Of a stretch of DNA of 53,962 nt, positions 6,971-53,962 are shown piece after piece. The notes beneath the pieces are model-generated. The model worked only from the letters and a program-made list of their open reading frames with translations, was not told the origin of the DNA and ran no database searches. Both the position numbers and the translations under genes were made by a program. Source of the DNA: Nemertoderma westbladi (taxonomy: Eukaryota > Animalia > Xenacoelomorpha); NCBI GenBank assembly GCA_032718475.1, contig JAUCBJ010002850.1, positions 1 through 53,962 on the forward strand, read 5' to 3'. Position 1 is the first letter of the stretch, and every line of letters starts with the position of its first letter.

Positions 6971-6974
6971 GATT

Positions 6975-11709: not shown

Positions 11710-12210
11710 GTTTTAGTTTGGGACGAGGAATCTAAAGATATGGTAGTTCGCGAAGTCCTCATATGGAACGAAACTGTGGCGAATCTAACTCTAATGGCTC
11801 TGGGAAGTTCAGCTCCGGAAATCCTTCTCGCTATAGTCGAAACTGCTGGCCAACTCGATGAGTCAGGCGAGATTAAGAAGGACAGTCTGGGGGTATTCAC
11901 TATAATCGGGTCGGCCGCCTTTAATTTACTAATAATCTCGGCAATCTGCGTAGCGAGCGTAGATTCGCCGGAGCCGAAACGAATTCGCGAGGTCGGCGTC
12001 TTCATCCTCACCTCTTCGTGGTCAATGTTCGCGTATCTATGGTTACTCATCTCCCTCATCTGGATATCGCCGGGTGAGGTGGATATGATTGAGGCTTGGT
12101 TAACCTTGTCATTCTTCCCGTTGCTAGTGGTTTCGGCATACGCGCAGGATAACGGATGGTGGTGCAGAAAGAAGCAGCACTCTACCTCACAACAACCTCA
12201 GGAACCACAG
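11710..12210 (+). CDS. SLC8A: NCX coding exon 2 (alpha-1 repeat, TM2-TM5)
   Basis: Acceptor tttctcag|; [40 protein letters not shown]...GSAAFN...[10 protein letters not shown] contains the NCX alpha-1 signature; donor CAG|gtgagt at 12211, phase 0/0. Confidence 0.97.
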
Positions 12211-14510
12211 GTGAGTAACCAACGCAACCTGTTAACGCCTCCCCCCCCCCCGGGAACCGCAGGTGAGTAACCAACCCTACCCATAGCAACGACAGCTGAG
12301 TAACCAACCCAACCCATAGCAACGACACCTGAGTAACCAACACTACCCATAGCAACCACACCTGAGTAACCAACCCTACCCATAGCAACGACAGGTGAGT
12401 AACCAACACTACCCATAGCAACCACAGCTGAGTAACCAACCCTACCCATAGCAACCACACCTGAGTAACCAACCCTACCCATAGCAACGACAGGTGAGTA
12501 ACCAACACTACCCATAGCAACCACAGCTGAGTAACCAACACTACCCATAGCAACGACAGGTGAGTAACCAACCCTACCCATAGCAACCACAGCTGAGTAA
12601 CCAACCCTACCCATAGCAACCACAGCTGAGTAACCAACCCTACCCATAGCAACCACAGCTGAGTAACCAACCCTACCCATAGCAACCACACCTGAGTAAC
12701 CAACCCTACCCATAGCAACGACAGGTGAGTAACCAACACTACCCATAGCAACCACAGCTGAGTAACCAACACTACCCATACCAACGACAGGTGAGTAACC
12801 AACCCTACCCATAGCAACCACAGCTGAGTAACCAACCATACCCATAGCAACCACAGCTGAGTAACCAACCCTACCCATAGCAACCACAGCTGAGTAACCA
12901 ACCCTACCCATAGCAACCACACCTGAGTAACCAACCCTACCCATAGCAACGACAGGTGAGTAACCAACCCTACCCATAGCAACCACACCTGAGTAACCAA
13001 CCCTACCCATAGCAACGACAGGTGAGTAACCAACACTACCCATAGCAACCACACCTTAGTAACCAACCCTACCCATAGCAACGACAGGTGAGTAACCAAC
13101 ACTACCCATAGCAACCACAGCTGAGTAACCAACCCTACCCATAGCAACCACACCTGAGTAACCAACCCTACCCATAGCAACGACAGGTGAGTAACCAACA
13201 CTACCCATAGCAACCACAGCTGAGTAACCAACCCTACCCATAGCAACGACAGGTGAGTAACCAACCCTAGCCATAGCAACGACAGCTGAGTAACCAACCC
13301 TACCCTTAGCAACGACAGGTGAGTAACCAACCCTACCCATAGCAACGACACTTGAGTAACCAACCCTACCCTTAGCAACCACAGCTGAGTAACCAACCCT
13401 ACCCTTAGCAACGACAGATGAGTAACCAACCCTACCCATAGCAACGACAGCTGAGTAACCAACCCTACCCTTAGCAACGACAGGTGAGTACCCAACCCTA
13501 CCCATAGCAACCACAGCTGAGTAACCAACCCTACCCATAGCAACGACACCTGAGTAACCAACCCTACCCTTAGCAACAACAGCTGAGTAACCAACCCTAC
13601 CCTTAGCAACGACAGGTGAGTAACCAACCCTACCCATAGCAACCACAGCTGAGTAACCAACCCAACCCATAGCAACCACAGCTGAGTAACCAACCCTACC
13701 CATAGCAACGACACCTGAGTAACCAACCCTACCCATAGCAACGACACCTGAGTAACCAACACTACCCATAGCAACCACAGCTGAGTAACCAACCCTACCC
13801 ATAGCAACCACACCTTAGTAACCAACCCTACCCATAGCAACGACAGGTGAGTAACCAACACTACCCATAGCAACCACAGCTGAGTAACCAACACTACCCA
13901 TAGCAACGACAGGTGAGTAACCAACCCTACCCATAGCAACGACACCTGAGTAACCAACACTTCCCATAGCAACCACAGCTGAGTAACCAACACTACCCAT
14001 AGCAACGACAGGTGAGTAACCAACACTACCCATAGCAACCACAGCTGAGTAACCAACACTTCCCATAGCAACCACACCTGAGTAACCAACCCTACCCATA
14101 TCAACCACAGCTGAGTAACCAACCCTACCCATAGCAACGACAGGTGAGTAACCAACCCAACCCATAGAAACGACAGGTGAGTACCCAACCCTACCCATAG
14201 CAACGACAGGTGAGTAACCAACACTACCCATAGCAACCACAGCTGAGTAACCAACACTTCCCATAGCAACCACAGCTGAGTAACCAACACTACCCATAGC
14301 AACGACAGGTGAGTAACCAACACTACCCATAGCAACCACAGCTGAGTAACCAACACTACCCATAGCAACGACAGGTGAGTAACCTAGCACCCACCTAGTA
14401 ACCGCAGGTGAGTAACAAACACCCATAGTAAACCGCAGGTCTGTACCCAAACTTCCCTTAGCAACAGCGGCTGAGTACCAAAACCTCCCCTAGCAACCTC
14501 GGGTTAGTAA
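12202..14510 (+). repeat. 33-bp minisatellite derived from the exon-2 donor junction (caggtgagtaaccaaccctacccatagcaacga), ~70 copies
   Basis: First unit overlaps the exon end; units alternate caggtgagt / cagctgagt / cacctgagt; explains minus-strand 11-aa periodic ORFs. Confidence 0.95.
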
Positions 14511-14948
14511 CCCCCACACACCCCAGCTATCTCATGCGTCACTCTATCAGCCGTATTACATCCACACCAACTCTTGAATTACTTTATTAAAACTGGCTTC
14601 CTTTCAACTCGTTTTGTTGTTTACTAAATTGATGGAGTTTTATCTGCCGCTGTGCATTACCGTCATTAATAAAGGATTTTGTTATGTAAATCCCTTTCAC
14701 TCACACCTACATACAACCGTGCTAAATATTATTGTCATTCTGTATGAGGGAGGGATGTTTCCTATTTTATTACCCAAAGTCAATAAATATCATGGAGTTT
14801 TCCATTTAACTGCCAGCTTAAATAGCCTGGTTGCTAGGTTCTCTGGCTGTTTTAAGTTCCCAAAATTGTAGCTTTTTATTTTACTTTTAATTATTATAGG
14901 ATTAACTCATCAGCAGTTCCGATTAATAGGCAATTTATACCTCATAGA

Positions 14949-15318
14949 CCTAGAGACCAGCTAGACCATGGCCTAGAGACCAGCTAGACCATGGCCTAGA
15001 GACCAGCTAGACCATGGCTTAGAGACCAGCTAGACCATGGCCTAGAGACCAGGTAGACCATGGCCTAGAGACCAGCTAGACCATGGCCTAGAGACCAGCT
15101 AGACCGTGGCCTAGAGACCAGCTAGACCATGACCTAGAGATCAGCTAGACCATAGCCTATAGATAAGCTAGACCATGGCCTAGAGACCAGCTAGACCATG
15201 GCCTAGAGACCAGCTAGACCGTGGTGGCCTAGAGACCAGTTAGACCATGGCCTAGAGACCAGCTATACCTTGGCCTAGAGGCCAGCTAGATCCTGGCCTA
15301 GAGGCCAGCTAGATCATG
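14949..15318. repeat. 23-bp minisatellite (cctagagaccagctagaccatgg), ~16 copies
   Basis: Direct tandem periodicity. Confidence 0.93.
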
Positions 15319-16634
15319 GACAAGGACAGCTAGCAGCTAACTATATTATTGCGCACTTATTTTGACGTTAATTTATGTATCTCTCATCGGTGTAATCTGT
15401 GTAATTCTGTCGGGATCATCAGTGTAATATTGAGTATCTCTTCCGTGTTGGTCGTTATTTTATTTCATAATTTTATTAATTAAATTCCCGGCATGTCCGG
15501 TAGCCCCAGGTAACCGAACCGTAACCTTTCTTGTACGTTGTACGTACGTTGTACTAGTACCGTTGTTAATTGTACGAACTTAGTACAACTACATTAGGCT
15601 GTTACCGCCCGAATTTATATTGCCATTCTCGCACCTACTGTATTAGGGAATTCAATTCAAGGGAAAAATTCCCCATATTATAGTAGAAAGTCGCACTAAT
15701 TGTATCCCCAGTAAAATTTTTTCCAACTCCAAGGATACCTGTGTGCAGTAGCCACTCCCCCTGTTGTTGGAAACTCAAGGTCGGTTCTCATATTTTACAT
15801 GACACAAACTCCTGATTAGGGAGTTACTCCTTACCCATCGATCTTCCGCCATTAACTACCTACACCACCCCCCTCCCACCCAATTGACTCTGTTGTCCTC
15901 TCCTCTCTCCCATTTACAGTGAAATAATTGATGAGTTTGTCAGTTAAACCTGGTAAATCCTCTATTTGAATCTGAGATACACTATTAGTACATATCCCCT
16001 ACTCTACTCAGTACTAACAATGATCGTTCAGTAATCACTGCTATTCACCATCACTGCTAGTCCCTTATTGTAGTTTACTAACTGTGGACAAGGAAATGTC
16101 TTTTTAATAATTAATTTATCATTACAATTCTACGGGCTGCCTGAGGCCACTATTCCATAATGGGTTCGTTAGTAGCGCTTCACAACACAGTAGCGATATT
16201 TGTCTGCTTCCGATAACGTTACACCTAATTGCCTTCTGCCATGATGGGGTTCTGATCTCTCCAATCGTCCTACCCCATTTCCCTAATGCATTTATTTTGC
16301 ATCAGCCCTTTGTTTGGGGGTAAGGTATGTTGTCAGGTAACCCCCCCCCCCCCCCCCCCAAGATTCAAAGTTTCCGGAATTTCTTCCCAACTTCCTGAGA
16401 CAATTGATTGATTGATTTATTAACCCGGATGATTAATTTATGGCCGCTGCGCAAACACCGTTGAGACAGGCCCAGGGAGACTCGCCTAACTTTCTATCAG
16501 CAACATTCAACTCCGCTGTTCCTCTTCCTTATTAATCGGGAATTTATAATGCGTGGTATCCTTAGTTACGCTGACAGTTTGGGTGTGCACTCTAGTACTC
16601 TAGTAATTTGAAAACAATTTTATCACTTTAGGAT

Positions 16635-26680: not shown

Positions 26681-26689
26681 TTTGTAAAC

Positions 26690-27501: not shown

Positions 27502-27612
27502 ACCTCACCTACAGCTAACCCTGTCGGCATAACTAACTCAGTTACAACTCCAACCCACAGTAATGGTGCCCTTGGCAACGGGAGAGTACCCAACAATAAC
27601 GTACCGTTAGAA
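27502..27612 (+). CDS. SLC8A: NCX coding exon 3 (cytoplasmic loop, low complexity)
   Basis: Acceptor tttcatttcag|, 111 nt open (TSPTANPVGITNSVTTPTHSNGALGNGRVPNNNVPLE), donor GAA|gtaagt at 27613; phase 0/0 fits flanking exons. No homology support by eye; being symmetric it could be a cassette. Confidence 0.7.
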
Positions 27613-27637: not shown

Positions 27638-29966
27638 TTAATGGGAGGGGAGGGGTACCCCCCCCCTTAAAGGGAGGGGAACCCCCCCCCCCCCTTAATG
27701 GGAGGGGTACCCCCCCTTAATGGGAGGGGAACCCCCCCCCCCCCCCTTAATGGGAGGGGTACCCCCCCCCCCCCCTTAATGGGAGGGGTACCCCCCCTTA
27801 ATGGGAGGGGAACCCCCCCCCCCCTTAATGGGAGGGGAACCCCCCCCCCTTAATGGGAGGGGAACCCCCCCCCCCTTAATGGGAGGGGTACCCCCCCCCC
27901 CTTAATGGGAGGGGTACCCCCCCTTAATGGGAGGGGAACCCCCCCCCCCTTAATGGGAGGGGTACCCCCCCCTTAATGGGATGGGACCCCCCCCCCCCCC
28001 TTAATGGGAGGGGTACCCCCCCCCCCCCTTAATGGGAGGGGTACCCCCCCCTTAATGGGAGGGGTACCCCCCCTTAACCCTATTACCACTGGGGTGTTTT
28101 GACCATTAGCACCACTGGGGGGGGGGGGGGGGGGGGGAATTCGGCCCACCCATATTTTTGTAATCGTCCAATGAAATCCTACAAAATTTGGGCTGTTGGT
28201 TAAACAACTATAGATGAACACTACCAAACCTTAAAAAGTTAAAATTTCATAAGCAGGGAATCATAATTTTGATGAAAAATAAAAGTAGTCCCAGGACAAA
28301 ATTACATAATTTTTCGTTTTCTAAAAACTATTAGTCTGGCAGTGTTGGTTAGATTTAGTAGGTTTTTCAAGACGCTGAATCGAATGTGATTATATTCCAT
28401 TTCCAAAAATTGAAGTGGATGCTATTTTTCGTGCACCTAAGAAGTGGGCGTGGCACTTCAAATTTTGAAAAATTAGATATTCAGAAAATGCCCCTAATTT
28501 TTTATTTCAACGCATCTTTATAGGTTTTCTGGGCCGCTGAATCGATTGAAAGTAATATAGAAGCCTGAAGACTTAGTGGTTCGCCATTTTTGGTGCACCA
28601 AAATTAGGGCGTGGCACTTCAAATTTTGAAAAATACGAGATTCGGAAAATAAACCAAAATTGAAATTTTAACGCATTTATATAGGTTTTCTAGACCGCTG
28701 AATCGATTGAAAGTAATATAGAAGCCTGAAGACTTAGAGGTTAGCCATTTTTGATGTATCAAAATTAGGGCGTGGCACTTAAATTTTGAAAAATGAAATG
28801 AAAAATTTTGGTGCACCAAAAATGGCGAACCACTAAGTCTTCAGGCTTCTATATTTCTTTCAATCGACTCAGCGCTCCAGAAAACCAATAAAAATGCTTC
28901 GAAATCAAAACTTTAGTAAATTTTCCGAATAAAGTAATTTTGAAATATTAAAGTGCCACGCCCTAATTTTGGTGCTCCAAAAATGACGTACCACTACACT
29001 TACATACTTGTAAAGAGCATTAGAGTGATCCACACCAATAAAAATAAAAAAAATAACCCAAACATAAATAATTACTAAATCACGAATGACTTTGTAAAAT
29101 TCGAAAATTTCAAAAAATTTGGTGCTGGAGACCAAATTTTGAGGTGGGTACCCACATCGAAAAGTAGAAATCCAATTGCAACGTCGTTTATTGCAAAAGA
29201 TGCGGCATTAAATTTGGCTAATTCTCAATAAAAATTGGGCCGGTACGTAATGTGGTTGCATAGTTACAGCAACTAAAATCTAGGAAGGGGTCGATTCCCC
29301 CCCCCCCCCCCCCCCCCAGTGGTAATAGGGTTAATGGGAGGGGTACCCCCCCTTAATGGGAGGAGTACCCCCCCTTAATGGGAGGGGTACCCCTCCTTAA
29401 TGGGAGGGGTACCCCCCTTAATGGGAGGGGTAACCCCCCTTAATGGGATGGGTACCCCCCCTTAATGGGAGGGGTACCCCCCTTTAATGGGAAGGGTAAC
29501 CCCCCCCCCCCCCTAATGGGAGGGGGAACCCCCCTTAATGGGATGGGTATCCCCCCTTAATGGGATGGGTACCCCCCTTAATGGGAGGGGTACCCCCCCT
29601 TAATGGGAGGGGTACCCCTCCTTAATGGGAAGGGTACCCCCCTTAATGGGAGGAGTAATCCCCCCCCCCACTAATGGGAGGGGTACCCCTCCTTAATGGG
29701 AAGGGTACCCCCCCCCCCCCCCTTAATGGGAGGGGTAACCCCCCTTAATGGGATGGGTACCCCCCCTTAATGGGAGGGGTACCCCTCCTTAATGGGAGGG
29801 GTAACCCCCCTTAATGGGATGGGTACCCCCCCTTAATGGGAGGGGTACCCCTCCTTAATGGGAGGGGTACCCCCCTTTAATGGGAAGGGTAACCCCCCCC
29901 CCCCCCCCCCCCCTAATGGGAGGGGGAACCCCCCTTAATGGGATGGGTATCCCCCCTTAATGGGAT
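27638..29966. repeat. G/C-tract minisatellite (ttaatgggaggggtacccccc, variable C run), interrupted by a transposon at 28078-29330
   Basis: Same ~20-28-bp unit on both sides of the insertion; unit is quasi-palindromic around GTAC. Confidence 0.92.
28078..29330. mobile_element. Non-autonomous piggyBac-like DNA transposon (1253 bp)
   Basis: TTAA on both sides (28074-28077, 29331-29334); perfect 17-bp TIR ccctattaccactgggg / ccccagtggtaataggg; internal direct and inverted repeats; no transposase ORF. Confidence 0.88.
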
Positions 29967-34000: not shown

Positions 34001-37000
34001 ATTTATTTGCTTTGTGTCCCTCAGTATTTATTTGCTTTGTGTCCCTCAGTATTTATTTGCTTTGTGTCCCTCAGTATTTGTTTGTTTGTGTCAGTATTTA
34101 TTTGCTTTGTTTCCCTCAGTATTTATTTGCTTTGTGTCCCTCAGTATTTATTTGTTTTGTGTCCCTCAGTATTTATTTGCTTTGTGTCCCTCAGTATTTA
34201 TTTGCTTTGTGTCCCTCAGTATTTATTTGCTTTGTGCCCATCAGTATTTATTTGCTTTGTGTCCCTCAGTATTTGTTTGCTTTGTGTCCCTCAGTATTTG
34301 TTTGCTTTGTGTCCCTCAGTATTTGTTTGTTTGTGTCAGTATTTATTTGCTTTGTGTCCCTCAGTATTTATTTGCTTTGTGTCCCTCAGTATTTATTTGT
34401 TTTGTGTCCCTCAGTATTTATTTGCTTTGTGTCCCTCAGTATTTATTTGCTTTGTGTCCCTCAGTATTTATTTGCTTTGTGCCCATCAGTATTTATTTGC
34501 TTTGTGTCCCTCAGTATTTGTTTGCTTTGTGTCCCTCAGTATTTGTTTGCTTTGTGTCCCTCAGTATTTGTTTGCTTTGTGTCAGTATTTATTTGCTTTG
34601 TGTCCCTCAGTATTTATTTGCTTTGTGTCCCTCAGTATTTATTTGTTTTGTGTCCCTCAGTATTTATTTGCTTTGTGTCCCTCAGTATTTATTTGCTTTG
34701 TGTCCCTCAGTATTTATTTGCTTTGTGCCCATCAGTATTTATTTGCTTTGTGTCCCTCAGTATTTGTTTGCTTTGTGTCCCTCAGTATTTGTTTGCTTTG
34801 TGTCCCTCAGTATTTGTTTGCTTTGTGTCAGTATTTATTTGCTTTGTGTCCCTCAGTATTTATTTGCTTTGTGTCCCTCAGTATTTGTTTGCTTTGTGTC
34901 CCTCAGTATTTATTGGCTTTGTGTCCCTCATTATTTATTTGCTTTGTGTCCCTTAGTATTTATTTGCTTTGTGTCCCTCAGTATTTATTTGCTCTGTGTC
35001 CCTCAGTATTTGTTTGCTTTGTGTCCCTCAGTATTTATTGGCTTTGTGTCCCTCATTATTTATTTGCTTTGTGTCCCTCAGTATTTATTTGCTTTGTGTC
35101 CCTCAGTATTTGTTTGCTTTGCGTCCCTCAGTATTTGTTTGCTTTGTGTCCCTCAGTATTTATTTGCTTTGTGTCCCTCAGTATTTATTTGCTTTGCGTC
35201 CCTCAGTATTTGTTTGCTTTGTGTCCCTCAGTATTTATTTGCTTTGTGTCCCTCAGTATTTGTTTGCTTTGTGTCAGTATTTATTTGCTTTGTGTCCCTC
35301 AGTATTTGTTTGCTTTGCGTCCCTCAGTATTTGTTTGCTTTGTGTCCCTCAGTATTTGTTTGCTTTGTGTCAGTATTTATTTGCTTTGTGTCCCTCAGTA
35401 TTTATTTGCTTTGTGTCCCTCAGTATTTGTTTGCTTTGTGTCCCTCAGTATTTGTTTGCTTTGTGTCCCTCAGTATTTATTTGCTTTGTGTCCCTCAGTA
35501 TTTATTTGCTTTGTGTCCCTCAGTATTTAGTTGCTTTGTGTCCCTCAGTATTTATTTGCTTTGTGTCCCTCAGTATTTATTTGCTTTGTGTCCCTCAGTA
35601 TTTATTTGCTTTGTGCCCATCAGTATTTATTTGCTTTGTGTCCCTCAGTATTTGTTTGCTTTGTGTCCCTCAGTATTTGTTTGCTTTGTGTCCCTCAGTA
35701 TTTGTTTGCTTTGTGTCAGTATTTATTTGCTTTGTGTCCCTCAGTATTTATTTGCTTTGTGTCCCTCAGTATTTGTTTGCTTTGTGTCCCTCAGTATTTA
35801 TTGGCTTTGTGTCCCTCATTATTTATTTGCTTTGTGTCCCTTAGTATTTATTTGCTTTGTGTCCCTCAGTATTTATTTGCTTTGTGTCCCTCAGTATTTG
35901 TTTGCTTTGTGTCCCTCAGTATTTATTGGCTTTGTGTCCCTCATTATTTATTTGCTTTGTGTCCCTCAGTATTTATTTGCTTTGTGTCCCTCAGTATTTA
36001 TTGGCTTTGTGTCCCTCATTATTTATTTGCTTTGTGTCCCTCAGTATTTATTTGCTTTGTGTCCCTCAGTATTTATTTGCTTTGTGTCCCTCAGTATTTA
36101 TTTGCTTTGTGTCCCTCAGTATTTATTTGCTTTGTGTCCCTCAGTATTTATTTGCTTTGTGTCCCTCAGTATTTATTTGCTTTGTGTCCCTCAGTATTTG
36201 TTTGCTTTGTGTCCCTCAGTATTTATTGGCTTTGTGTCCCTCAGTATTTATTTGCTTTGTGTCAGTATTTATTTGCTTTGTGTCCCTTAGTATTTATTTG
36301 CTTTGTGTCAGTATTTATTTGCTTTGTGTCAGTATTTATTTGCTTTGTGTCCCTCAGTATTTGTTTGCTTTGTGTCCCTCAGTATTTATTTGCTTTGTGT
36401 CCCTCAGTATTTATTTGCTTTGTGTCAGTATTTATTTGCTTTGTGTCCCTCAGTATTTATTTGCTTTGTGTCAGTATTTATTTGCTTTGTGTCAGTATTT
36501 ATTTGCTTTGTGTCCCTCAGTATTTGTTTGCTTTGTGTCCCTCAGTATTTATTTGCTTTGTGTCCCTCAGTATTTATTTGCTTTGTGTCAGTATTTATTT
36601 GCTTTGTGTCCCTCAGTATTTGTTTGCTTTGTGTCCCTCAGTATTTGTTTGCTTTGTGTCCCTCAGTATTTATTTGCTTTGTGTCAGTATTTATTTGCTT
36701 TGTGTCCTTCAGTATTTATTTGCTTTGTGTCCCTCAGTATTTGTTTGCTTTGTGTCCCTCAGTATTTATTTGTTTTGTGTCCCTCAGTATTTATTTGCTT
36801 TGTGTCCCTCAGTATTTGTTTGCTTTGTGTCCCTCAGTATTTATTTGCTTTGTGTCAGTATTTATTTGCTTTGTGTCCCTCAGTATTTGTTTGCTTTGTG
36901 TCCCTCAGTATTTATTTGCTTTGTGTCCCTCAGTATTTATTTGCTTTGTGTCCCTCAGTATTTATTTGCTTTGTGTCCCTCAGTATTTATTTGCTTTGTG

Positions 37001-40000
37001 TCAGTATTTATTTGCTTTGTGTCCCTCAGTATTTATTTGCTTTGTGTCCCTCAGTATTTATTTGCTTTGTGTCCCTCAGTATTTATTTGCTTTGTGTCCC
37101 TCAGTATTTATTTGCTTTGTGTCCCTCAGTATTTATTTGCTTTGTGTCCCTCAGTATTTATTTGCTTTGTGTCCCTCAGTATTTATTTGCTTTGTGTCCC
37201 TCAGTATTTATTTGCTTTGTGTCCCTCAGTATTTATTTGCTTTGTGTCCATCAGTATTTATTTGCTTTGTGTCCCTCAGTATTTATTTGCTTTGTGTCCC
37301 TCCGTATTTATTTGCTTTGTGTCCCTCAGTATTTATTTGCTTTGTGTCCCTCAGTATTTATTTGCTTTGTGTCCCTCAGTATTTGTTTGCTTTGTGTCCC
37401 TCAGTATTTATTTGTTTTGTGTCCCTCAGTATTTATTTGCTTTGTGTCCCTCAGTATTTGTTTGCTTCGTGTCCCTCAGTATTTATTTGCTTTGTGTCAG
37501 TATTTATTTGCTTTGTGTCCCTCAGTATTTGTTTGCTTTGTGTCCCTCAGTATTTATTTGCTTTGTGTCCCTCAGTATTTATTTGCTTTGTGTCCCTCAG
37601 TATTTATTTGCTTTGTGTCCCTCAGTATTTATTTGCTTTGTGTCAGTATTTATTTGCTTTGTGTCCCTCAGTATTTATTTGCTTTGTGTCCCTCAGTATT
37701 TATTTGCTTTGTGTCCCTCAGTATTTATTTGCTTTGTGTCCCTCAGTATTTATTTGCTTTGTGTCCCTCAGTATTTATTTGCTTTGTGTCCCTCAGTATT
37801 TATTTGCTTTGTGTCCCTCAGTATTTATTTGCTTTGTGTCCCTCAGTATTTATTTGCTTTGTGTCCCTCAGTATTTATTTGCTTTGTGTCCCTCAGTATT
37901 TATTTGCTTTGTGTCCCTCAGTATTTATTTGCTTTGTGTCCCTCAGTATTTATTTGCTTTGTGTCCCTCAGTATTTATTTGCTTTGTGTCCCTCAGTATT
38001 TATTTGCTTTGTGTCCCTCAGTATTTATTTGCTTTGTGTCCCTCAGTATTTATTTGCTTTGTGTCCCTCAGTATTTATTTGCTTTGTGTCAGTATTTATT
38101 TGCTTTGTGTCCTTCAGTATTTATTTGCTTTGTGTCCCTCAGTATTTGTTTGCTTTGTGTCCCTCAGTATTTATTTGTTTTGTGTCCCTCAGTATTTATT
38201 TGCTTTGTGTCCCTCAGTATTTATTTGCTTTGTGTCAGTATTTATTTGCTTTGTGTCCCTCAGTATTTGTTTGCTTTGTGTCCCTCAGTATTTATTTGCT
38301 TTGTGTCCCTCAGTATTTATTTGCTTTGTGTCCCTCAGTATTTATTTGCTTTGTGTCCCTCAGTATTTATTTGCTTTGTGTCAGTATTTATTTGCTTTGT
38401 GTCCCTCAGTATTTATTTGCTTTGTGTCCCTCAGTATTTATTTGCTTTGTGTCCCTCAGTATTTATTTGCTTTGTGTCCCTCAGTACTTATTTGCTTTGT
38501 GTCCCTCAGTATTTATTTGCTTTGTGTCCCTCAGTATTTATTTGCTTTGTGTCCCTCAGTATTTATTGGCTTTGTGTCCCTCAGTATTTATTTGCTTTGT
38601 GTCCCTCAGTATTTATTTGCTTTGTGTCCATCAGTATTTATTTGCTTTGTGTCCCTCAGTATTTATTTGCTTTGTGTCCCTCCGTATTTATTTGCTTTGT
38701 GTCCCTCAGTATTTGTTTGCTTTGTGTCCCTCAGTATTTGTTTGCTTTGTGTCCCTCAGTATTTATTTGCTTTGTGTCCCTCCGTATTTATTTGCTTTGT
38801 GTCCCTCAGTATTTATTTGCTTTGTGTCCCTCAGTATTTATTTTCTTTGTGTCCCTCAGTATTTATTTGCTTTGTGTTCCTCAGTATTTATTTGCTTTGT
38901 GTCCCTCAGTATTTATTTGCTTTGTGTCCCTCAGTATTTGTTTGCTTTGTGTCAGTATTTATTTGCTTTGTGTCCCTCAGTATTTATTTGCTTTGTGTCC
39001 CTCAGTATTTGTTTGCTTTGTGTCCCTCAGTATTTATTTGCTTTGTGTCAGTATTTATTTGCTTTGTGTCCCTCAGTATTTATTTGCTTTGTGTCCCTCA
39101 GTATTTATTTGCTTTGTGTCCCTCAGTATTTATTTGCTTTGTGTCCCTCAGTATTTATTTGCTTTGTGTCCCTCAGTATTTGTTTGCTTTGTGTACCTCA
39201 GTATTTATTTGCTTTGTGTCCCTCAGTATTTATTTGCTTTGTGTCCCTCAGTATTTATTTGCTTTGTGTCCCTCAGTATTTATTTGCTTTGTGTCCCTCA
39301 GTATTTATTTGCTTTGTGTCCCTCAGTATTTATTTGCTTTGTGTCCCTCAGTATTTATTTGCTTTGTGTCCCTCAGTATTTGTTTGCTTTGTGTCCCTCA
39401 GTATTTATTTGCTTTGTGTCAGTATTTATTTGCTTTGTGTCCCTCAGTATTTGTTTGCTTTGTGTCCCTCAGTATTTATTTGCTTTGTGTCAGTATTTGT
39501 TTGCTTTGTGTCCCTCAGTATTTATTTGCTTTGTGTCCCTCAGTATTTATTTGCTTTGTGTCCCTCAGTATTTGTTTGCTTTGTGTCAGTATTTATTTGC
39601 TTTGTGTCCCTCAGTATTTATTTGCTTTGTGTCTCTCAGTATTTATTTGCTTTGTGTCCCTCAGTATTTATTTGCTTTGTGTCCCTCAGTATTTATTGGC
39701 TTTATGTCCCTCAGTATTTATTTGCTTTGTGTCCCTCAGTATTTATTTGCTTTGTGTCCCTCAGTATTTATTTGCTTTGTGTCCCTCAGTATTTATTTGC
39801 TTTGTGTCCCTCAGTATTTATTTGCTTTGTGTCCCTCAGTATTTGTTTGCTTTGTGTCCCTCAGTATTTATTTGCTTTGTGTCAGTATTTATTTGCTTTG
39901 TGTCCCTCAGTATTTATTTGCTTTGTGTCCCTCAGTATTTGTTTGCTTTGTGTCCCTCAGTATTTATTTGCTTTGTGTCAGTATTTATTTGCTTTGTGTC

Positions 40001-41820
40001 CCTCAGTATTTGTTTGCTTTGTGTCCCTCAGTATTTATTTGCTTTGTGTCCCTCAGTATTTATTTGCTTTGTGTCCCTCAGTATTTATTTGCTTTGTGTC
40101 CCTCAGTATTTATTTGCTTTGTGTCCCTCAGTATTTGTTTGCTTTGTGTCCCTCAGTATTTATTTGCTTTGTGTCAGTATTTATTTGCTTTGTGTCCCTC
40201 AGTATTTATTTGCTTTGTGTCAGTATTTATTTGCTTTGTGTCCCTCAGTATTTGTTTGCTTTGTGTCCCTCAGTATTTATTTGCTTTGTGTCCATCAGTA
40301 TTTATTTGCTTTGTGTCCCTCAGTATTTATTTGCTTTGTGTCCCTCAGTATTTATTTGCTTTGTGTCCCTCAGTATTTATTTGCTTTGTGTCCCTCAGTA
40401 TTTGTTTGCTTTGTGTCCCTCAGTATTTATTTGCTTTGTGTCAGTATTTATTTGCTTTGTGTCCCTCAGTATTTATTTGCTTTGTGTCCCTCAGTATTTA
40501 TTTGCTATGTGTCCCTCAGTATTTATTGGCTTTGTGTCCCTCAGTATTTATTTGCTTTGTGTCCCTCAGTATTTATTTGCTTTGTGTCCCTCAGTATTTA
40601 TTTGCTTTGTGTCCCTCAGTATTTATTTGCTTTGTGTCCCTCAGTATTTATTTGCTTTGTGTCCCTCAGTATTTATTTGCTTTGTGTCCCTCAGTATTTA
40701 TTTGCTTTGTGTCCCTCAGTATTTATTTGCTTTGTGTCCCTCAGTATTTATTTGCTTTGTGTCCCTCAGTATTTATTTGCTTTGTGTCCCTCAGTATTTA
40801 TTTGCTTTGTGTCCCTCAGTATTTATTTGCTTTGTGTCCCTCAGTATTTATTTGCTTTGTGTCCCTCAGTATTTATTTGCTTTGTGTCCCTCAGTATTTA
40901 TTTGCTTTGTGTCCCTTAGTATTTATTTGCTTTGTGTCCCTCAGTATTTATTTGCTTTGTGTCCCTCAGTATTTATTTGCTTTGTGTCCCTCAGTATTTA
41001 TTTGCTTTGTGTCCCTCAGTATTTATTTGCTTTGTGTCCCTCAGTATTTATTTGCTTTGTGTCCCTCAGTATTTATTTGCTTTGTGTCCCTCAGTATTTA
41101 TTTGCTTTGTGTCCCTCAGTATTTATTTGCTTTGTGTCCCTCAGTATTTATTTGCTTTGTGTCCCTCCGTATTTATTTGCTTTGTGTCCCTCAGTATTTA
41201 TTTGCTTTGTGTCCCTCAGTATTTATTTGCTTTGTGTCCCTCAGTATTTATTTGCTTTGTGTCCCTCCGTATTTATTTGCTTTGTGTCCCTCAGTATTTA
41301 TTTGCTTTGTGTCCCTCAGTATTTATTTGCTTTGTGTCCCTCAGTATTTATTTGCTTTGTGTCCCTCAGTATTTATTTGCTTTGTGTCCCTCAGTATTTA
41401 TTTGCTTTGTGTCCCTCAGTATTTATTTGCTTTGTGTCCCTCAGTATTTATTTGCTTTGTGTCCCTCAGTATTTATTTGCTTTGTGTCCCTCAGTATTTA
41501 TTTGCTTTGTGTCCCTCAGTATTTATTTGCTTTGTGTCCCTCAGTATTTATTGGCTTTATGTCCCTCAGTATTTATTTGCTTTGTGTCCCTCAGTATTTA
41601 TTTGCTTTGTGTCCCTCAGTATTTATTGGCTTTATGTCCCTCAGTATTTATTTGCTTTGTGTCCCTCAGTATTTATTTGTTTTGTGTCCCTCAGTATTTA
41701 TTTGCTTTGTGTCCCGCAGTATTTATTTGCTTTGTGTCCCTCAGTATTTATTTGCTTTGTGTCCCTCAGTATTTATTGGCTTTATGTCCCTCAGTATTTA
41801 TTTGCTTTGTTGTCCCTCAG
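31027..41820 (+). repeat. 25-bp satellite (tatttatttgctttgtgtccctcag), ~430 copies, 10.8 kb
   Basis: 25-bp period with 21-bp deletion variants; consensus has no stop codon on +, producing the spurious 1300-2100 aa ORFs. Confidence 0.98.
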
Positions 41821-44882: not shown

Positions 44883-45032
44883 GGATTTGGAGAACGGGCA
44901 GATAGGGGGCGGTAGTCGACGCGGCAGTGTTGTCATGGGAACCAGAAGAAACAGTGCGGCAGTAACGGGCAGCTTCCGACACGGGATGTTGCGAATCGGC
45001 GAAGAGGACCGCGTGTCGTTCCAACGAGCTCG
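44883..45032 (+). CDS. SLC8A: NCX coding exon 5 (cytoplasmic loop)
   Basis: Acceptor tttttatcattttcag|; DLENGQIGGGSRRGSVVMGTRRNSAAVTGSFRHGMLRIGEEDRVSFQRA; donor CG|gtaggt at 45033; phase 2/2. Confidence 0.82.
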
Positions 45033-47328
45033 GTAGGTTTACAAACCCGTACCAACGAACTCGGTAGGTTACAAACCCGTACCAACGAGCTCGGTAGGTT
45101 ACACACCCGTACCAACGAGCTCGGTAGATTACAAACCCGTACCAACGAACTCGGTAGGTTACAAATCCGTACCAACGAGCTCGGTAGGTTTACAAACCCG
45201 TACCAACGAGCTCGGTAGGTTTACAAACCCGTACCAACGAGCTCGGTAGGTTACAAACCCGTACCAACGAGCTCGGTAGGTTTACAAACCCGTACCAACG
45301 AGCTCGGTAGGTTTACAAACCCGTACCAACGAGCTCGGTAGATTACAAACCCGTACCAACGAGCTCGGTAGGTTACAAACCCGTACCAACGAGCTCGGTA
45401 GGTTACAAATCCGTACCAACGAGCTCGGTAGGTTTACAAACCCGTACCAACGAGCTCGGTAGGTTTACAAACCCGTACCAACGAGCTCGGTAGGTTACAA
45501 ACCCGTACCAACGAGCTCGGTAGGTTTACAAACCCGTACCAACGAACTCGGTAGGTTACAAACCCGTACCAACGAGCTCGGTAGGTTTACAAACCCGTAC
45601 CAACGAGCTCGGTAGGTTACAAACCCGTACCAACGAGCTCGGTAGGTTTACAAACCCGTACCAACGAGCTCGGTAGGTTACAAACCCGTACCAACGAGCT
45701 CGGTAGGTTACACACCCGTACCAACGAGCTCGGTAGGTTACAAACCCGTACCAACGAGCTCGGTAGGTTACACACCCGTACCAACGAGCTCGGTAGGTTA
45801 CAAACCCGTACCAACGAGCTCGGTAGGTTACAAATCCGTACCAACGAGCTCGGTAGGTTACAAACCCGTACCAACAAGCTCGGTAGATTACAAACCCGTA
45901 CCAATGAGCTCGGTAGGTTACAAACCCGTACCAACGAGCTCGGTAGGTTACAAACCCGTACCAACGAGCTCGGTAGGTTACACACCCGTACCAACGAGCT
46001 CGGTAGGTTTACAAACCCGTACCAACGAGCTCGGTAGGTTACAAACCCGTACCAACGAGCTCGGTAGGTTACAAACCCGTACCAACGAGCTCGGTAGGTT
46101 ACAAATCCGTACCAACGAGCTCGGTAGGTTACAAACCCGTACCAACGAGCTCGGTAGGTTACAAACCCGTACCAACGAGCTCGGTAGGTTACAAACCCGT
46201 ACCAACGAGCTCGGTAGGATTACAAACCCGTGCCAACGAGCTCGGTAGGCTTACAAACCCGTACCAACGAGCTCGGTAGGTTACAAACCCGTACCAACGA
46301 GCTCGGTAGGTTACAAACCCGTACCAACGAGCTCGGTAGGTTACAAACCCGTACCAACGAGCTCGGTAGGATTACAAACCCGTACCAACGAGCTCGGTAG
46401 GTTTACAAACCCGTACCAACGAGCTCGGTAGGTTACAAACCCGTACTTACGAGCTCGGTAGGTTACAAATCCGTACCAATGAGCTCGGTAGGATTACAAA
46501 CCCGTACCAACGAGCTCGGTAGGTTACAAACCCATACCAACGAGCTCGGTAGGTTACAAACCCGTACCAACGAGCTCGGTAGGTTACAAACCCGTACCAA
46601 CGAGCTCGGTAGGTTTACAAACCCGTACCAATGAGCTCGGTAGGTTACAAACCCGTACGAACGAGCTCGGTAGGTTACAAACCCGTACCAACGAGCTCGG
46701 TAGGTTACAAACCCGTACCAACGACCTCGGTAGGTTACAAACCCGTACCAACGAGCTCGGTAGGTTTACAAACCCGTACCAATGAGCTCGGTAGGTTACA
46801 AACCCGTACGAACGAGCTCGGTAGGTTACAAACCCGTACCAATGAGCTCGGTAGGTTACAAACCCGTACCAACGAGCTCGGTAGGTTTACAAACCCGTAC
46901 CAACGAGCTCGGTAGGTTACAAACCCGTACCAACGAGCTCGGTAGGTTACAAACCCGTACGAACGAGCTCGGTAGGTTACAAACCCGTACCAACGAGCTC
47001 GGTAGGTTACAAACCCGTACGAACGAGCTCGGTAGGTTACAAACCCGTACCAACGAGCTCGGTAGGTTACAAACCCGTACCAACGAGCTCGGTAGGTTAC
47101 AAACCCGTACCAACGAGCTCGGTAGGTTTACAAACCCGTACCAATGAGCTCGGTAGGTTACAAACCCGTACCAACGAGCTCGGTAGGTTTAAAAACCCGT
47201 ACCAATGAGCTCGGTAGGTTACAAACCCGTACCAACGAGCTCGGTAGGTTACAAACCCGTACCAACGAGCTCGGTAGGTTACAAACCCGTACCAACGAGC
47301 TCGGTAGGTTACAAACCCGTACCAACGA
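45021..47328 (+). repeat. 30/31-bp minisatellite derived from the exon-5 donor junction (ccaacgagctcg|gtaggttacaaacccgta), ~76 copies
   Basis: First unit = last 12 nt of exon 5 plus first 18-19 nt of intron; donor retained in almost every unit. Confidence 0.96.
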
Positions 47329-47744
47329 TCTCTGTATCTTTACATTCGCTTAATCACCCTCTATATTGATGGTATTCCTTATTCATTAGTAATTATTTAT
47401 TCATTATTATTATTTATTCATTACTTTTTAATGGTTTATTTTATTCAATTTACCCTTTATTGTCATTCCAATAATCTCCTAACCTGATTTATTTATTGAC
47501 ATTTAATTGTTAATCGTTTCTCAGGAATGTTTTCACTGAATCAACTGGTTGGAGTTATATTAGAACTCTACTATTTAAATCCATTTGATATCTAAGGGTG
47601 GGCTCGGAATCGTATAATGATAAGACTACATTTAACTAAACGTAAACATTTCTTACTAATTTTATTATCATTTTGATCACTCCAAAATTATAATTATAAT
47701 TAACAATTAACCCTATATTGTTATATTGTGTTAAGCTCTTCTAG

Positions 47745-47762
47745 TGTCTGTCAGCAGATAAG
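47745..47762 (+). CDS. Candidate 18-nt NCX microexon (adds VCQQIR)
   Basis: ttaac (~47707)..gctcttctag|tgtctgtcagcagataag|gtaagg; length multiple of 3, stop-free in phase 2 between exons 5 and 6. Confidence 0.45.
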
Positions 47763-47833
47763 GTAAGGAAATATTCGTCATCTACTGAAGAATAGATTTT
47801 GTAATTTCTGTTGATTTGAATGATTGTTTGATA

Positions 47834-50648
47834 TAGGGTTATCATCCCATATGCTGGTTGGCCCATGGACTAGATAGAGGGTTATCAGTATCCCCTATGC
47901 TGGCTGGCCCATGGACTAGATAGAGGGTTATCAGTATCCCCTATGCTGGCTGGCCCATGGACTAGATAGAGGGTTATCAGTATCCCCTATGCTGGCTGGC
48001 CCATGGACTAGATAGAGGGTTATCATACCACCCCCTATGCTGGCTGGCCCATGGACTAGATAGAGGGTTATCAGTATCCCCTATGCTGGCTGGCCCATGG
48101 ACTAGATAGAGGGTTATCAGTATCCCCAATGCTGGCTGGCCCATGGACTAGATAGAGGGTTATCCCCTATGCTGGCTGGCCCATGGACTAGATAGAGGGT
48201 TATCAGTATCCCCTATGCTGGCTGGCCCATGGACTAGATAGAGGGTTATCAGTATCCCCTATGCTGGCTGTCCCATGGACTAGATAGAGGGTTATCAGTA
48301 TCCCCTATGCTGGCTGGCCCATGGACTAGATAGAGGGTTATCAGTATCCCCAATGCTGGCTGGCCCATGGACTAGATAGAGGGTTATCCCCTATGCTGGC
48401 TGGCCCATGGACTAGATAGAGGGTTATCAGTATCCCCTATGCTGGCTGGCCCATGGACTAGATAGAGGGTTATCAGTATCCCCTATGCTGGCTGGCCCAT
48501 GGACTAGATAGAGGGTTATCAGTATCCCCAATGCTGGCTGGCCCATGGACTAGATAGAGGGTTATCCCCTATGCTGGCTGGCCCATGGACTAGATAGAGG
48601 GTTATCAGTATCCCCTATGCTGGCTGGCCCATGGACTAGATAGAGGGTTATCAGTATCCCCTATGCTGGCTGTCCCATGGACTAGATAAGAGGTTTATCA
48701 TCCCCTATGCTGGCTGGCCCATGGACTAGATAGAGGGTTATCAGTATCCCCTATGCTGGCTGGCCCATGGACTAGATAGAGGGTTATCATACCATCCCCT
48801 ATGCTGGCTGGCCCATGGACTAGATAGAGGGTTATCATACCCTCCCCTATGCTGGCTGGCCCATGGACTAGATAGAGGGTTATCAGTATCCCCTATGCTG
48901 GCTGGCCCATGGACTAGATAGAGGGTTATCAGTATCCCCAATGCTGGCTGGCCCATGGACTAGATAGAGGGTTATCCCCTATGCTGGCTGGCCCATGGAC
49001 TAGATAGAGGGTTATCAGTATCCCCTATGCTGGCTGGCCCATGGACTAGATAGAGGGTTATCAGTATCCCCTATGCTGGCTGTCCCATGGACTAGATAGA
49101 GGTTTATCATCCCCTATGCTGGCTGGCCCATGGACTAGATAGAGGGTTATCATTGCCTATGCTGGCTGTCCCATGGACTAGATAGAGGGTTATCAGTATC
49201 CCCTATGCTGGCTGGCCCATTGACTAGATAGAGGGTTATCAGTATCCCCTATGCTGGCTGGCCCATGGACTAGATAGAGGGTTATCAGTATCCCCTATGC
49301 TGGCTGGCCCATGGACTAGATAGAGGTTTATCATCCCCTATAGAGGTTTATCATCCCCTATGCTGGCTGGCCCATGGACTAGATAGAGGGTTATCATCCC
49401 ATATGCTGGCTGGCCCATGGACTAGATAGAGGGTTATCAGTATCCCCTATGCTGGCTGGCCCATGGACTAGATAGAGGGTTATCAGTATCCCCTATGCTG
49501 GCTGGCCCATGGACTAGATAGAGGGTTATCAGTATCCCCTATAATGGCTGGCCCATGGACTAGATGGAGGGTTATCATTGCCTATGCTGGCTGTCCCATG
49601 GACTAGATAGAGGGTTATCAGTATCCCCTACGCTGGCTGGCCCATGGACTAGATAGAGGGTTATCAGTATCCCCTATGCTGGCTGGCCCATGGACTAGAT
49701 AGAGGGTTATCAGTATCCCCTATGCTGGCTGTCCCATGGACTAGATAGAGGTTTATCATCCCCTATGCTGGCTGGCCCATGGACTAGATAGAGGGTTATC
49801 AGTATCCCCTATGCTGGCTGGCCCATGGACTAGATATAGGGTTATCAGTATCCCCTATTCTGGCTGTCCCATGGACTAGATAGAGGTTTATCATCCCCTA
49901 TGCTGGCTGGCCCATGGACTAGATAGAGGGTTATCATCCCCTATGATGGCTGGCCCATGGACTAGATAGAGGGTTATCAGTATCCCCTATGCTGGCTGGC
50001 CCATGGACTAGATAGAGGGTTATCATTGTATCCCCTATGCAGGCTGGCCCATGGACTAGATAGAGGGTTATCAGTATCCCCTATGCTGGCGGGCCCATGG
50101 CCTAGATAGAGGGTTATCAGTATCCCCTATGATGGCTGGCCCATGGACTAGATAGAGGGTTATCAGTATCCCCTATGCTGGCTGGCCCATGGACTAGATA
50201 GAGGGTTATCCCCTATGCTGGCTGGCCCATGGACTAGATAGAGGGTTATCAGTATCCCCTATGCTGGCTGGCCCATGGACTAGATAGAGGGTTATCATCC
50301 CCTATGCTGGCTGGCCCATGGACTAGATAGAGGGTTATCAGTATCCCCAATGCTGGCCGGCCCATGGACTAGATAGAGGGTTATCATCCCCTATGCTGGC
50401 TGGCCCATGGACTAGATAGAGGGTTATCATCCCCTATGCTGGCTGGCCCATGGACTAGATAGAGGGTTATCCCCTATGCTGGCTGGCCCATGGACTAGAT
50501 AGAGGGTTATCAGTATCCCCTATGCTGGCTGGCCCATGGACTAGATAGAGGGTTATCAGTATCCCCAATGCTGGCCGGCCCATGGACTAGATAGAGGGTT
50601 ATCCCCTATGCTGGCTGGCCCATGGACTAGATAGAGGGTTATCATTGC
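47834..50648. repeat. 46-bp minisatellite (gggttatcagtatcccctatgctggctggcccatggactagataga) with 40/43-bp variants, ~62 copies
   Basis: Direct tandem periodicity. Confidence 0.96.
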
Positions 50649-51718
50649 CTCTCTTTGTTAATGAATAATAATAATAATTAAAATTTATTACAACATAATC
50701 CTATTTTATGAGTTATAATAATTTAATAAATATGCAATTTAAACGATTTGATGAACAACTGTAAATTTTGTATATTTATTCAATCTGTGGATTTTATAAC
50801 AAATAAGGGATGTAATCATTTAATTTATTAATTATTTAACAATTTTTTAATGTAATATTCCCCCCTCATTAACGACTTCAGTATGTTACACTGAACTTAT
50901 ATCTTTATAATATTAACGAAACTATTTCCAAATTAGCGTAATAGCGAATGTTTCCAAATAAAACCTTTAGTGAAAACCTTTTGGACCATGTGGCTTACTT
51001 GTTTATGTAATTTAATTTAATTACTTATCCTCATGTTTTCATTAAAAATATGAGTTTATAGCGTACAAATTCTTTTGTAATTCGGAAACACCATACGTTA
51101 TAGACCTGTTAAACTAATTGTGGTGGTGAACAAATCCGCATTTACCAGGAATTTAATTCTGAACTTCTAACTGAACCTAAAGTAAACATGAAAACATTTA
51201 AATTTAAATAAAAAATAAAAATTTAAATTTTTGCAAATTTACAATTTAATTTCAACTTGGTTATCCTTATAGAGGCCAGGGTGTAGTGATACTACTACAT
51301 GCCATTGGCTTTGTAATAATTTGTATCGTCACAAGGCCAACCTGGTAGTTAACTAACATTAGTTGCTAAGGAAAACTTATTTCGGTACTCAAAAGTAAGC
51401 ATATAATATAGGGAGACAAAACATTACAGAAAATAAAATATATATTTAAAATGCATTCATAGTTTGAGTCATTAGTTGTTCGTTATAATTGTTGTTAATT
51501 CTTCCTTAATTGTGTATCAATTTTACCCAGTAGTGTTGGTGGTTTTGTTATAATTGTTTGTAGTGACCTACTTGCAGCGAGCTAACTGAACTTCTAACGA
51601 AAGTAAATTATTTTGTTAACTACTCTTTTAAAACTAATTTGTTTTCATTAATGGTTTTTTATTAATGTTCTAGAACATTACTCACGCACCGTTAAACTTA
51701 TCTGTTTAAACTTTTCAG

Positions 51719-51742
51719 CAGCAACGTAACATATTACAAGAG
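51719..51742 (+). CDS. Candidate 24-nt NCX microexon (adds SNVTYYKR)
   Basis: aaacttttcag|cagcaacgtaacatattacaagag|gtttgt; NAGNAG acceptor; stop-free in phase 2; donor weaker. Confidence 0.3.
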
Positions 51743-52504: not shown

Positions 52505-52650
52505 ATTTCGACACGCGGTAATGCGAGGTGTCGTTGGCAAGAAAGCTCCGAAACCATCGCCACCCCTGGAAACTCGTCTGAGCGAACAAGCTAATAAATT
52601 TCTCAATCTCGTGGAGAAAATGAAAATGATAACCAAATTCCCAGGTTTAG
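52505..52650 (+). CDS. SLC8A: NCX coding exon 6
   Basis: Acceptor ctttcttctattag|; FRHAVMRGVVGKK.. (junction QRAR-FRHAVMR recalls NCX SRAFYRIQATR); donor AG|gtgaga at 52651 (alternative same-phase donor at 52645); phase 2/1. Confidence 0.82.
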
Positions 52651-53419: not shown

Positions 53420-53595
53420 GATGGCGTGGGATATTGTGGGCGCCACACTAACTCACAAAGCTGAGCACTCCATAAACATCCAACCCAACCGCCACGGGAT
53501 CGAACCTGGGATGCCCCCCCCCCCCCCCCCCCCCCGGCTAGAAGCACAGCGAGTGACCTGGTGGAGTTGTCCTAGTCGGGCAGCACCTAAGAGAA
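53420..53595 (-). mobile_element. Probable tRNA-derived SINE head
   Basis: Minus strand ..gacaactccaccag..ttctagccggg..catcccaggttcgatcccgtgg with B box ggttcgatccc; related to 16655-16740. Confidence 0.45.
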
Positions 53596-53659
53596 CATTG
53601 AGTAACATTGTTTATCAACCGACCACGTTGTTATTTGACCACTTTTCTTTTTTCTTCAG

Positions 53660-53765
53660 ATTCTGACCTTCTTGCTGGGAAGGTGACAGTGTCTCTCCCG
53701 GCTCTTTCCGTTCTGTCCACCGAAGAATCCATCGACGTAGATATCGTATATCACAGAAAGAAAAC
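53660..53765 (+). CDS. SLC8A: NCX coding exon 7 (probable start of first Calx-beta domain); gene continues past window
   Basis: Acceptor ttttcttttttcttcag|; DSDLLAGKVTVSLPALSVLSTEESIDVDIVYHRKK resembles the first strands of Calx-beta; donor AC|gtaagt at 53766; phase 1/2. Confidence 0.8.
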
Positions 53766-53800
53766 GTAAGTATGACGTCACTCTGGTAAGGGATTGATGG

Positions 53801-53962
53801 AATTTTGGTAAAGTTTTTTTTTGTATCATTGATATAAATCTGTGACTAATTTTGGTAAAGTTTTTTTGTATCCTTGATATAAATCTGTGACTAATTTTGG
53901 TAAAGTTTTTTTGTATCCTTGATATAAATCTGTGATTAATTTTGGTTAAGTTTTTTTGTATC
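53801..53962. repeat. 45-bp minisatellite (aattttggtaaagtttttttgtatccttgatataaatctgtgact), truncated by window end
   Basis: About 3.5 copies visible, beginning 35 nt after the exon-7 donor. Confidence 0.88.

What the first reader, a model, noticed from the sequence alone, without database searches (positions are those of the whole stretch)
12202..53962. Splice-donor-anchored satellites: a different tandem array starts at or just after most 5' splice sites of the NCX gene
Seen: five of seven coding-exon donors are followed by an array, each with its own unit. Exon 2: 33-bp unit overlapping the donor. Exon 3: G/C unit, 25 nt downstream. Exon 4: 25-bp unit, 16 nt. Exon 5: 30-bp unit overlapping the donor. 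Exon 7: 45-bp unit, 35 nt. The candidate microexon donor (46-bp unit, ~70 nt) and a minus-strand donor-like site at 2576 (39-bp unit, 26 nt) fit too. None of the seven acceptors has an array abutting it. Exons 1 and 6 are exceptions. Inference: since the units are unrelated, they look like in-situ amplification of whatever lies at the intron 5' end rather than a spreading satellite family. Possible causes are a transcription- or splicing-coupled process (pausing, R-loops, slippage at the exon/intron edge) or selection for repeats there. I do not know this as a described system.
Basis: partly seen in the sequence, partly recalled or inferred. Interest (0 to 1): 0.85.

Follow-up and report, generated by a model that had tools for sequence, protein, structure and literature searches.

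The report
Minisatellites born at intron starts
In an invertebrate sodium/calcium exchanger gene, five of seven predicted exon ends are followed within about 50 bases by a tandem repeat with its own unit; two copy the splice signal itself (a type known from lancelets and humans as 'mirages'), three do not, so intron starts are likely a local birthplace of harmless repeats whose cause is still untested.

Summary
The seven-exon NCX model reads in one open frame. Arrays start at -7, +26, +17, -26 and +36 from five donors, where about 0.3-0.5 such hits are expected (p about 1e-5 to 8e-4). The empty acceptor side is only chance level (P about 0.55).

Two arrays (exons 2, 5) contain the donor and match published 'mirage'/F7-type minisatellites. 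The scan has found those before: 73 notes in at least 17 genomes, many in this one. Three arrays do not contain the donor, yet are still over-represented (3 of 7, p 0.002-0.02). That is the less familiar part.

Short-read contigs of two studies show the exon-2 and exon-7 arrays. One sample very likely carries a single-copy allele of the 46-bp array, which supports recent amplification in place. No RNA run or genome was available, so exon use and genome-wide enrichment are untested. Units share no motif or G-skew, which argues against R-loop or enhancer readings.

Verdict: a real, likely neutral variant of a known repeat type, with an open question about why repeats are born at donors.

The parts
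5380..5613 (+). NCX (SLC8-like) coding exon 1; donor has no array (nearest 883 nt)
   Evidence: open frame; tblastn E 1e-14 with homologues; distance
11710..12210 (+). Exon 2, Na_Ca_ex domain; donor CAG|GTGAGT
   Evidence: Pfam PF01699 E 1.7e-15; 56-67% identity to the 120 listed homologues
12203..14440 (+). 33-bp donor-spanning (mirage-type) array; 24 of 66 anchored copies keep GT, 42 do not; read-through meets an in-frame stop after 19 codons
   Evidence: contig break or tandem joint here in runs X1 and X2
27502..27612 (+). Exon 3, 111 nt, phase 0/0, branch-point-like motif at -25; no homologue support
27638..29966 (+). G/C 22-bp array starting 26 nt after the exon-3 donor, interrupted by an inserted element
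28078..29330 (.). Non-coding element with terminal inverted repeats, CCC...GGG ends and a TTAA on each side, inserted into a TTAA of the array (piggyBac-like MITE; these hallmarks are recalled, not searched)
30859..31010 (+). Exon 4
   Evidence: tblastn E 5e-6
31027..41820 (+). 25-bp T-rich array, about 430 copies, starting 17 nt after the donor; unit holds no donor
44883..45032 (+). Exon 5; donor TCG|GTAGGT; its last residues align with homologues
45006..47336 (+). 30-bp donor-spanning (mirage-type) array, about 77 copies, 73 with an intact donor core; read-through stop at once
47745..47762 (+). Candidate 18-nt microexon, in frame, at a position where 5 of 18 aligned homologues carry short insertions
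   Evidence: no RNA evidence
47830..50650 (+). 46-bp array, about 62 copies, 68 nt after the microexon donor; tandem in run X2, very likely single-copy in run X1
52505..52650 (+). Exon 6; donor has no array
53660..53765 (+). Exon 7
   Evidence: tblastn E 7e-5
53801..53962 (+). 45-bp array starting 36 nt after the donor, cut by the window end; multi-copy in runs X1 and X2
1..2550 (-). 39-bp array 26 nt past a minus-strand donor-like site at 2576; belongs to a neighbouring, unconfirmed gene

Best explanation
These are minisatellites that likely arose one by one in place, each from a 22-46-base piece at or just after an exon's 3' end that was likely duplicated during DNA replication or repair and then expanded by slippage or unequal exchange, and they are likely neutral passengers. 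Shown: the positions, the unrelated units, the exon-derived units at exons 2 and 5, and the presence of arrays in other samples. Inferred from human and lancelet cases: the first donor is the one used, so extra donor copies and everything past about +6 are tolerated. Inferred and untested: exon edges have a raised rate of small tandem duplication for a DNA-level reason, such as misalignment where conserved exon meets indel-rich intron. Donor-side products would survive more easily than those that disturb a branch point or pyrimidine tract. On this reading a mirage is the subset whose unit happens to overlap the junction, and the three donor-free arrays are the same process a few bases further in.
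For: Donor enrichment of 5 of 7 against 0.3-0.5 expected. Donor-free arrays alone: 3 of 7, p 0.002, and p 0.02 without exon 3 or without the last intron. The exon-2 and exon-5 units align to the exon end plus donor better than any of about 2,080 unique windows, so they were born there. Units are mutually unrelated. Run X1: a 916-nt contig at single-copy depth aligns to 50601-50972 and runs 545 letters further upstream. 88% of the window's 31-mers there are repeated, so it cannot be crossing the array, and a one-copy allele predicts its end at 47299, exactly where the exon-5 array would break it. Run X2 breaks at the array and has a tandem contig at depth 448 against 21. A transposon-like element sits inside the exon-3 array and most exon-2 copies have lost GT, as expected for unconstrained DNA. 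First-donor use is shown experimentally for human F7 (PMC1557585, passages read), and normal splicing is reported for lancelet mirages (PMC3087553, PMC3902484, passages read).
Against: One gene, chosen for the pattern, and no genome to test it on. The donor-free units show no significant likeness to their donor flank (p 0.07-0.77 against unique windows), so a mirage ancestry for them is not shown. A symmetrical edge effect predicts acceptor-side arrays, and this window has none (0 of 6). Sense-strand donor-like motifs away from the seven exons also precede arrays (3 of 15 against 0 of 15 antisense), which fits a splicing-linked cause better. Part of the 46-mer occurs in other genomic places. 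Nothing here tests the cause of the positional bias. The X1 allele's letters were not displayed.
Confidence: 0.55

Rival explanations
1. A transcription- or splicing-coupled process (polymerase pausing or backtracking, or U1 engagement at the 5' splice site in the germline) would make DNA just past donors prone to breaks and tandem duplication.
For: The excess is on the donor side only and includes arrays without a donor in the unit. Sense-strand GT[AG]AG motifs precede 3 of the 9 arrays that are away from the seven donors (p 0.02-0.03; 2 of 8 and p 0.12 without the microexon site), while antisense motifs do so 0 of 15 times. The minus-strand site at 2576 fits in its own orientation.
Against: No shared G-skew or motif among units, so no R-loop or G-quadruplex signature. 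Earlier, unreviewed scan notes report giant acceptor-spanning arrays in this genome. No RNA or nascent-transcript data. Pausing at splice sites is recalled, not taken from a call.
Confidence: 0.2
2. Chance plus selection of the window: two-thirds of the intron DNA is tandem repeat, and a reader scanning many windows picks the one where arrays happen to sit at donors.
For: 67% of intronic bases are arrays. 9 of 14 arrays are not at the seven donors. The donor-free class is only p 0.002-0.02. Donor against acceptor is Fisher p 0.02-0.06.
Against: Overall p 5e-6 to 8e-4 with arrays collapsed to points. Two of 14 units spanning a donor is itself p about 0.02. Many other genes of this genome were noted with junction arrays (unreviewed and also selected).
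Confidence: 0.12
3. Arrays arise anywhere but are kept longer, and end up closer, next to donors, because deletions that trim the spacer are tolerated until they reach the donor.
For: Spacers of 16-67 nt sit just beyond the essential donor bases; introns show frequent small indels between samples.
Against: It cannot produce units made of exon sequence (exons 2, 5). It predicts short gaps at acceptors too, but the nearest are 409-422 nt. The 46-mer precursor already sits at the same distance in the single-copy allele.
Confidence: 0.08
4. The arrays are selected splicing regulators (intronic enhancers, silencers or decoy donors).
For: Human intronic repeats can alter splicing (PMC10078293, passages read; ABCA7 seen as a search listing only). 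73 intact donor copies follow exon 5.
Against: No shared motif. One array is very likely absent in another sample. Exons 1 and 6 have none. No array was found after the matching donor in any of 80 related loci, 23 of which look like genomic copies with an intron there (a weak control).
Confidence: 0.05

Closest known systems
Lancelet 'mirage' minisatellites (Adh3, globins BflGb6/BflGb9, troponin C, PGBD5; PMC3087553 and PMC3902484, matching passages read)
   Same: Tandem copies of an exon-intron boundary with gene-specific units (10-72 bp in Adh3), length-variable, some copies with dead splice signals, mechanism stated to be unclear.
   Different: Here 66-77 copies against 3-6 in BflGb6. Three further arrays start 17-36 nt inside the intron and hold no junction. 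No lancelet protein is among the 120 listed homologues and the tree leaves the organism unplaced.
Human junction-spanning VNTRs: F7 IVS7 37-bp, 6-16, CBS IVS13, LAMIN B2, PDGF (PMC1557585, matching passages read)
   Same: The first monomer spans the donor, pseudo-donors follow, and copy number is polymorphic.
   Different: These are single loci with 5-25 copies. Here most donors of one gene are affected, and first-donor use was not tested.
Donor-adjacent intronic VNTRs and splicing-associated tandem repeats in humans (ABCA7 intron 18, PMC5954066, listing and abstract start only; PMC10078293, passages read)
   Same: Intronic tandem repeats near splice junctions with variable length.
   Different: Described for their effect on splicing. 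In the passages seen no birth bias towards donors is reported.

Membership tests
Mirage / junction-spanning minisatellite | Unit spans an exon-intron boundary (exon-2 and exon-5 arrays) | tested here: met
   scores 40 and 46, above all ~2,080 unique windows and 1,000 shuffles
Mirage / junction-spanning minisatellite | Unit spans an exon-intron boundary (exon-3, exon-4, exon-7, microexon and minus-strand arrays) | tested here: not met
   p 0.07-0.77 against unique windows; these five are not mirages by definition
Mirage / junction-spanning minisatellite | Head-to-tail copies, many keeping the splice signal | tested here: met
   24 of 66 and 73 of about 77 copies
Mirage / junction-spanning minisatellite | Copy number varies between alleles | tested here: inconclusive
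   Inferred for the 46-mer only; contigs cannot size the exon-2 or exon-5 arrays
Mirage / junction-spanning minisatellite | Normal splicing from the authentic site | not testable with these tools
   No RNA holder listed; no own-transcript protein found
Dispersed satellite family | One unit shared among loci | tested here: not met
   1 of 78 unit pairs beat all 200 shuffles (23-mer with 46-mer). A core of the 46-mer does occur elsewhere.
G-rich / R-loop-prone intron-start repeats | G-rich sense strand | tested here: not met
   GC skew -0.45, -0.18, -0.06, -0.12, +0.06, +0.39
SLC8/NCX host gene | Na_Ca_ex domain followed by the conserved cytoplasmic loop | tested here: met
   PF01699; alignment with 18 homologues through exon 7

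The most novel reading that the evidence does not exclude
In this lineage the first ~70 bases after a sense-strand U1-binding site are a germline hot zone for tandem duplication, created by transcription or spliceosome assembly itself. Mirages would be only the junction-overlapping subset, splicing would be writing its own repeats into the genome, and this would be a main engine of intron growth (donor-side arrays supply 16.6 kb of this gene's 48 kb of intron).
Probability: 0.2. Interest if true: 0.8.

Novelty: new variant of a known kind. Interest (0 to 1): 0.4.

Why it matters
The origin of mirage repeats is stated to be unclear (PMC3087553). This gene suggests the bias is about position (the intron start) and not about copying the splice signal, because arrays with and without the donor are both enriched there. 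A genome with so many arrays, and with expanded and single-copy alleles side by side, would make the question directly testable: birth sites can be mapped against donors, acceptors, strand and germline expression. If the cause is splicing-coupled, it would be a new route from RNA processing to heritable mutation. If not, it is a neat but neutral feature of a repeat-rich genome.

Tried and rejected
No whole genome is held, so the genome-wide test could not be run. No RNA holder was listed; this says nothing about expression. Searches for the organism's own transcript-derived protein found nothing with exon 5 or exon 4. The minus-strand open frame 2578-2724 found no family, homologue or Atlas hit of 0.9 or more. 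The first metagenome scan found no relative; the second gave 80 loci, a weak control since many are redundant or transcripts and short-read contigs tend to break at arrays. The quick tree left the protein unplaced on a long branch (the careful search did not finish). Runs X4 and X5 barely covered the stretches. Rejected: donor-free units as decayed mirages (not significant; exon 3 borderline at p 0.03-0.07). Rejected: a conveyor in which arrays age with distance from the donor (the most uniform array, the 40-mer, lies 13.5 kb from its donor). Rejected: hidden in-frame exons before the 25720 and 42651 arrays (no in-frame, stop-free cassette ends at either donor-like site). Rejected: assembly artefact, for the three arrays examined. 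Ten paper searches found mirage and F7-type papers but none reporting a genome-wide birth bias at intron starts. The library lacks most subscription journals, the original Adh3 mirage paper was not seen, and no supplements were read.
Full report
Gene model. The window holds the 5' half of an animal sodium/calcium exchanger gene. Seven GT-AG exons give one open frame of 466 codons, or 472 with an 18-nt candidate microexon. Exon 2 matches Pfam Na_Ca_ex; the 120 listed homologues are 56-67% identical and come from echinoderms, hemichordates, molluscs and other invertebrates. Exons 1, 2, 4, 6 and 7 have tblastn support (exon 6 weak, E 0.01), the end of exon 5 aligns, and exon 3 has no counterpart in 17 of 18 aligned homologues. 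Five of those 18 carry short insertions at the microexon position, which makes it plausible but unproven. A quick tree leaves the protein unplaced. No genome and no RNA run were available.

The observation. Tandem repeats fill 66% of the window. Of 14 intronic arrays, five start at -7, +26, +17, -26 and +36 from the donors of exons 2, 3, 4, 5 and 7, and a sixth starts 68 nt after the microexon donor. The nearest array-to-acceptor gaps are 409-422 nt. With arrays collapsed to points and placed at random over 13.4 kb of unique intron, 0.3-0.5 donor hits are expected. The observed count has p between 5e-6 and 8e-4 whether short TRF hits are added, the truncated last intron is dropped or exon 3 is dropped. 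These values ignore that the window was picked for the pattern. Zero acceptor hits is unremarkable (0.56 expected).

Two classes. The exon-2 and exon-5 units are copies of the exon end plus donor. 24 of 66 exon-2 copies and 73 of about 77 exon-5 copies keep the GT, and use of a later copy would meet a stop codon. These match lancelet mirages (PMC3087553, PMC3902484; matching passages read) and human F7-type VNTRs, where the most upstream donor was shown to be chosen (PMC1557585; passages read). Earlier scan notes gave me the name and these papers; 73 notes in at least 17 genomes describe such arrays, and notes on this genome include acceptor-spanning ones (unreviewed, not tested by me). The other arrays (exons 3, 4, 7, microexon, minus strand) do not contain a donor and are not significantly like their flanks. 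Taken alone they still hit 3 of 7 donors against 0.3 expected (p 0.002; 0.02 in the strictest variants). This class is what the finding adds.

Are the arrays real, and are they local? In three DNA runs (two studies) contigs cover exon 2; those of X1 and X2 break or turn back at the array start, and the X3 contig runs to 12248. At exon 7, contigs of X1 and X2 end at 53821 and summed depth in the last bin is 900 and 233 against 18-21. At the 46-mer, X2 breaks at the array and has a tandem contig at depth 448. X1 has one 916-nt contig at single-copy depth that aligns to 50601-50972 and carries 545 more letters upstream. It cannot be crossing the window's array, since 88% of 31-mers there are repeated. 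If X1 has one unit, position 50601 corresponds to 47844 and the contig should end at 47299, which is exactly where the exon-5 array would stop it. The letters were not shown, so this is inference, but it indicates a one-copy precursor segregating with a 60-copy allele. Loose ends and the high X1 depth in that bin show that a roughly 30-nt core of this unit also occurs elsewhere, so the amplified piece need not be unique. Units are otherwise unrelated (1 of 78 pairs). The exon-3 array has a TTAA-flanked, piggyBac-like element inserted in it.

Cause of the position. Sense-strand GC skew of the six arrays runs from -0.45 to +0.39, so there is no R-loop or G4 signature and no shared binding motif. 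Three of 15 sense-strand GT[AG]AG motifs outside the seven exons are followed by an array within 75 nt, against 0 of 15 antisense (p 0.02-0.03; one of the three is the microexon donor and without it p is 0.12). This is a weak hint for a splicing link. No array follows the best donor candidate in any of 80 related loci, 23 of which look genomic with an intron there, so the trait is probably lineage-specific, with the caveat that such contigs break at arrays. The minus-strand site at 2576 closes an open frame of about 50 codons with a plausible acceptor but no homologue; the same 39-mer also reads as an acceptor-like unit on the plus strand, so it is not counted.

Reading. Most likely (0.55), short pieces at exon ends and intron starts are duplicated by ordinary replication or repair errors at a raised rate, expand as VNTRs, and persist because the first donor is used. 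A splicing-coupled origin (0.2), chance with selection of the window (0.12), erosion towards the donor (0.08) and selected function (0.05) are the rivals. The cause of the positional bias is inferred in every case.

Novelty. Donor-spanning arrays are known and were seen many times in this scan. Ten searches found no paper on a birth bias of junction-free arrays at intron starts; the library is incomplete and supplements were not read. I rate this a new variant of a known kind, interest 0.4, rising to 0.8 if a genome-wide, transcription-dependent bias is shown.

Noticed in passing
window 28078-29330: 1.25-kb element with terminal inverted repeats, TTAA on both sides and internal 161-bp inverted repeats, inserted into the G/C array; looks like a piggyBac-type MITE.
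   Followed up: partly
window 47830-50650 and run X1 record 1: Very likely a one-copy versus ~60-copy polymorphism; a core of the unit also occurs in a dispersed high-copy sequence.
   Followed up: partly
window 2578-2726 (-) and 2783-2900 (-): Open frame of about 50 codons with acceptor and donor, preceded by a possible 58-nt intron; candidate neighbouring gene with no homologue found.
   Followed up: partly
window 1-2550 (+): On the plus strand each 39-bp unit reads like an acceptor (pyrimidine-rich run, CAG|GT, TTAAC upstream); an acceptor-type array cannot be excluded.
   Followed up: no
window 25714 and 42614: Donor-like GTAAGA motifs 6 and 37 nt before mid-intron arrays, with no in-frame cassette exon; possible non-coding or cryptic sites.
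   Followed up: partly
window 6230-9290: The 17-mer and 21-mer arrays recur at 6496-7182 and 7626-7870, and the region's ends look like inverted copies by eye; possibly a mobile element carrying satellites.
   Followed up: no
window 11579-11613 and 52902-52941: Short pieces of very high-copy dispersed repeats (summed depth thousands to tens of thousands).
   Followed up: no
window 4590-4810 and 30115-30345: Two similar ~220-bp stretches, seen by eye; likely a dispersed repeat.
   Followed up: no
window 27580-27591: A 12-nt piece inside exon 3 resembles the G/C array unit (p 0.03-0.07).
   Followed up: partly
window 3351-3403 (+): Possible non-coding upstream exon ending in a GTGAGT donor; exon 1 has an acceptor at 5331, so an upstream exon is expected.
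   Followed up: no
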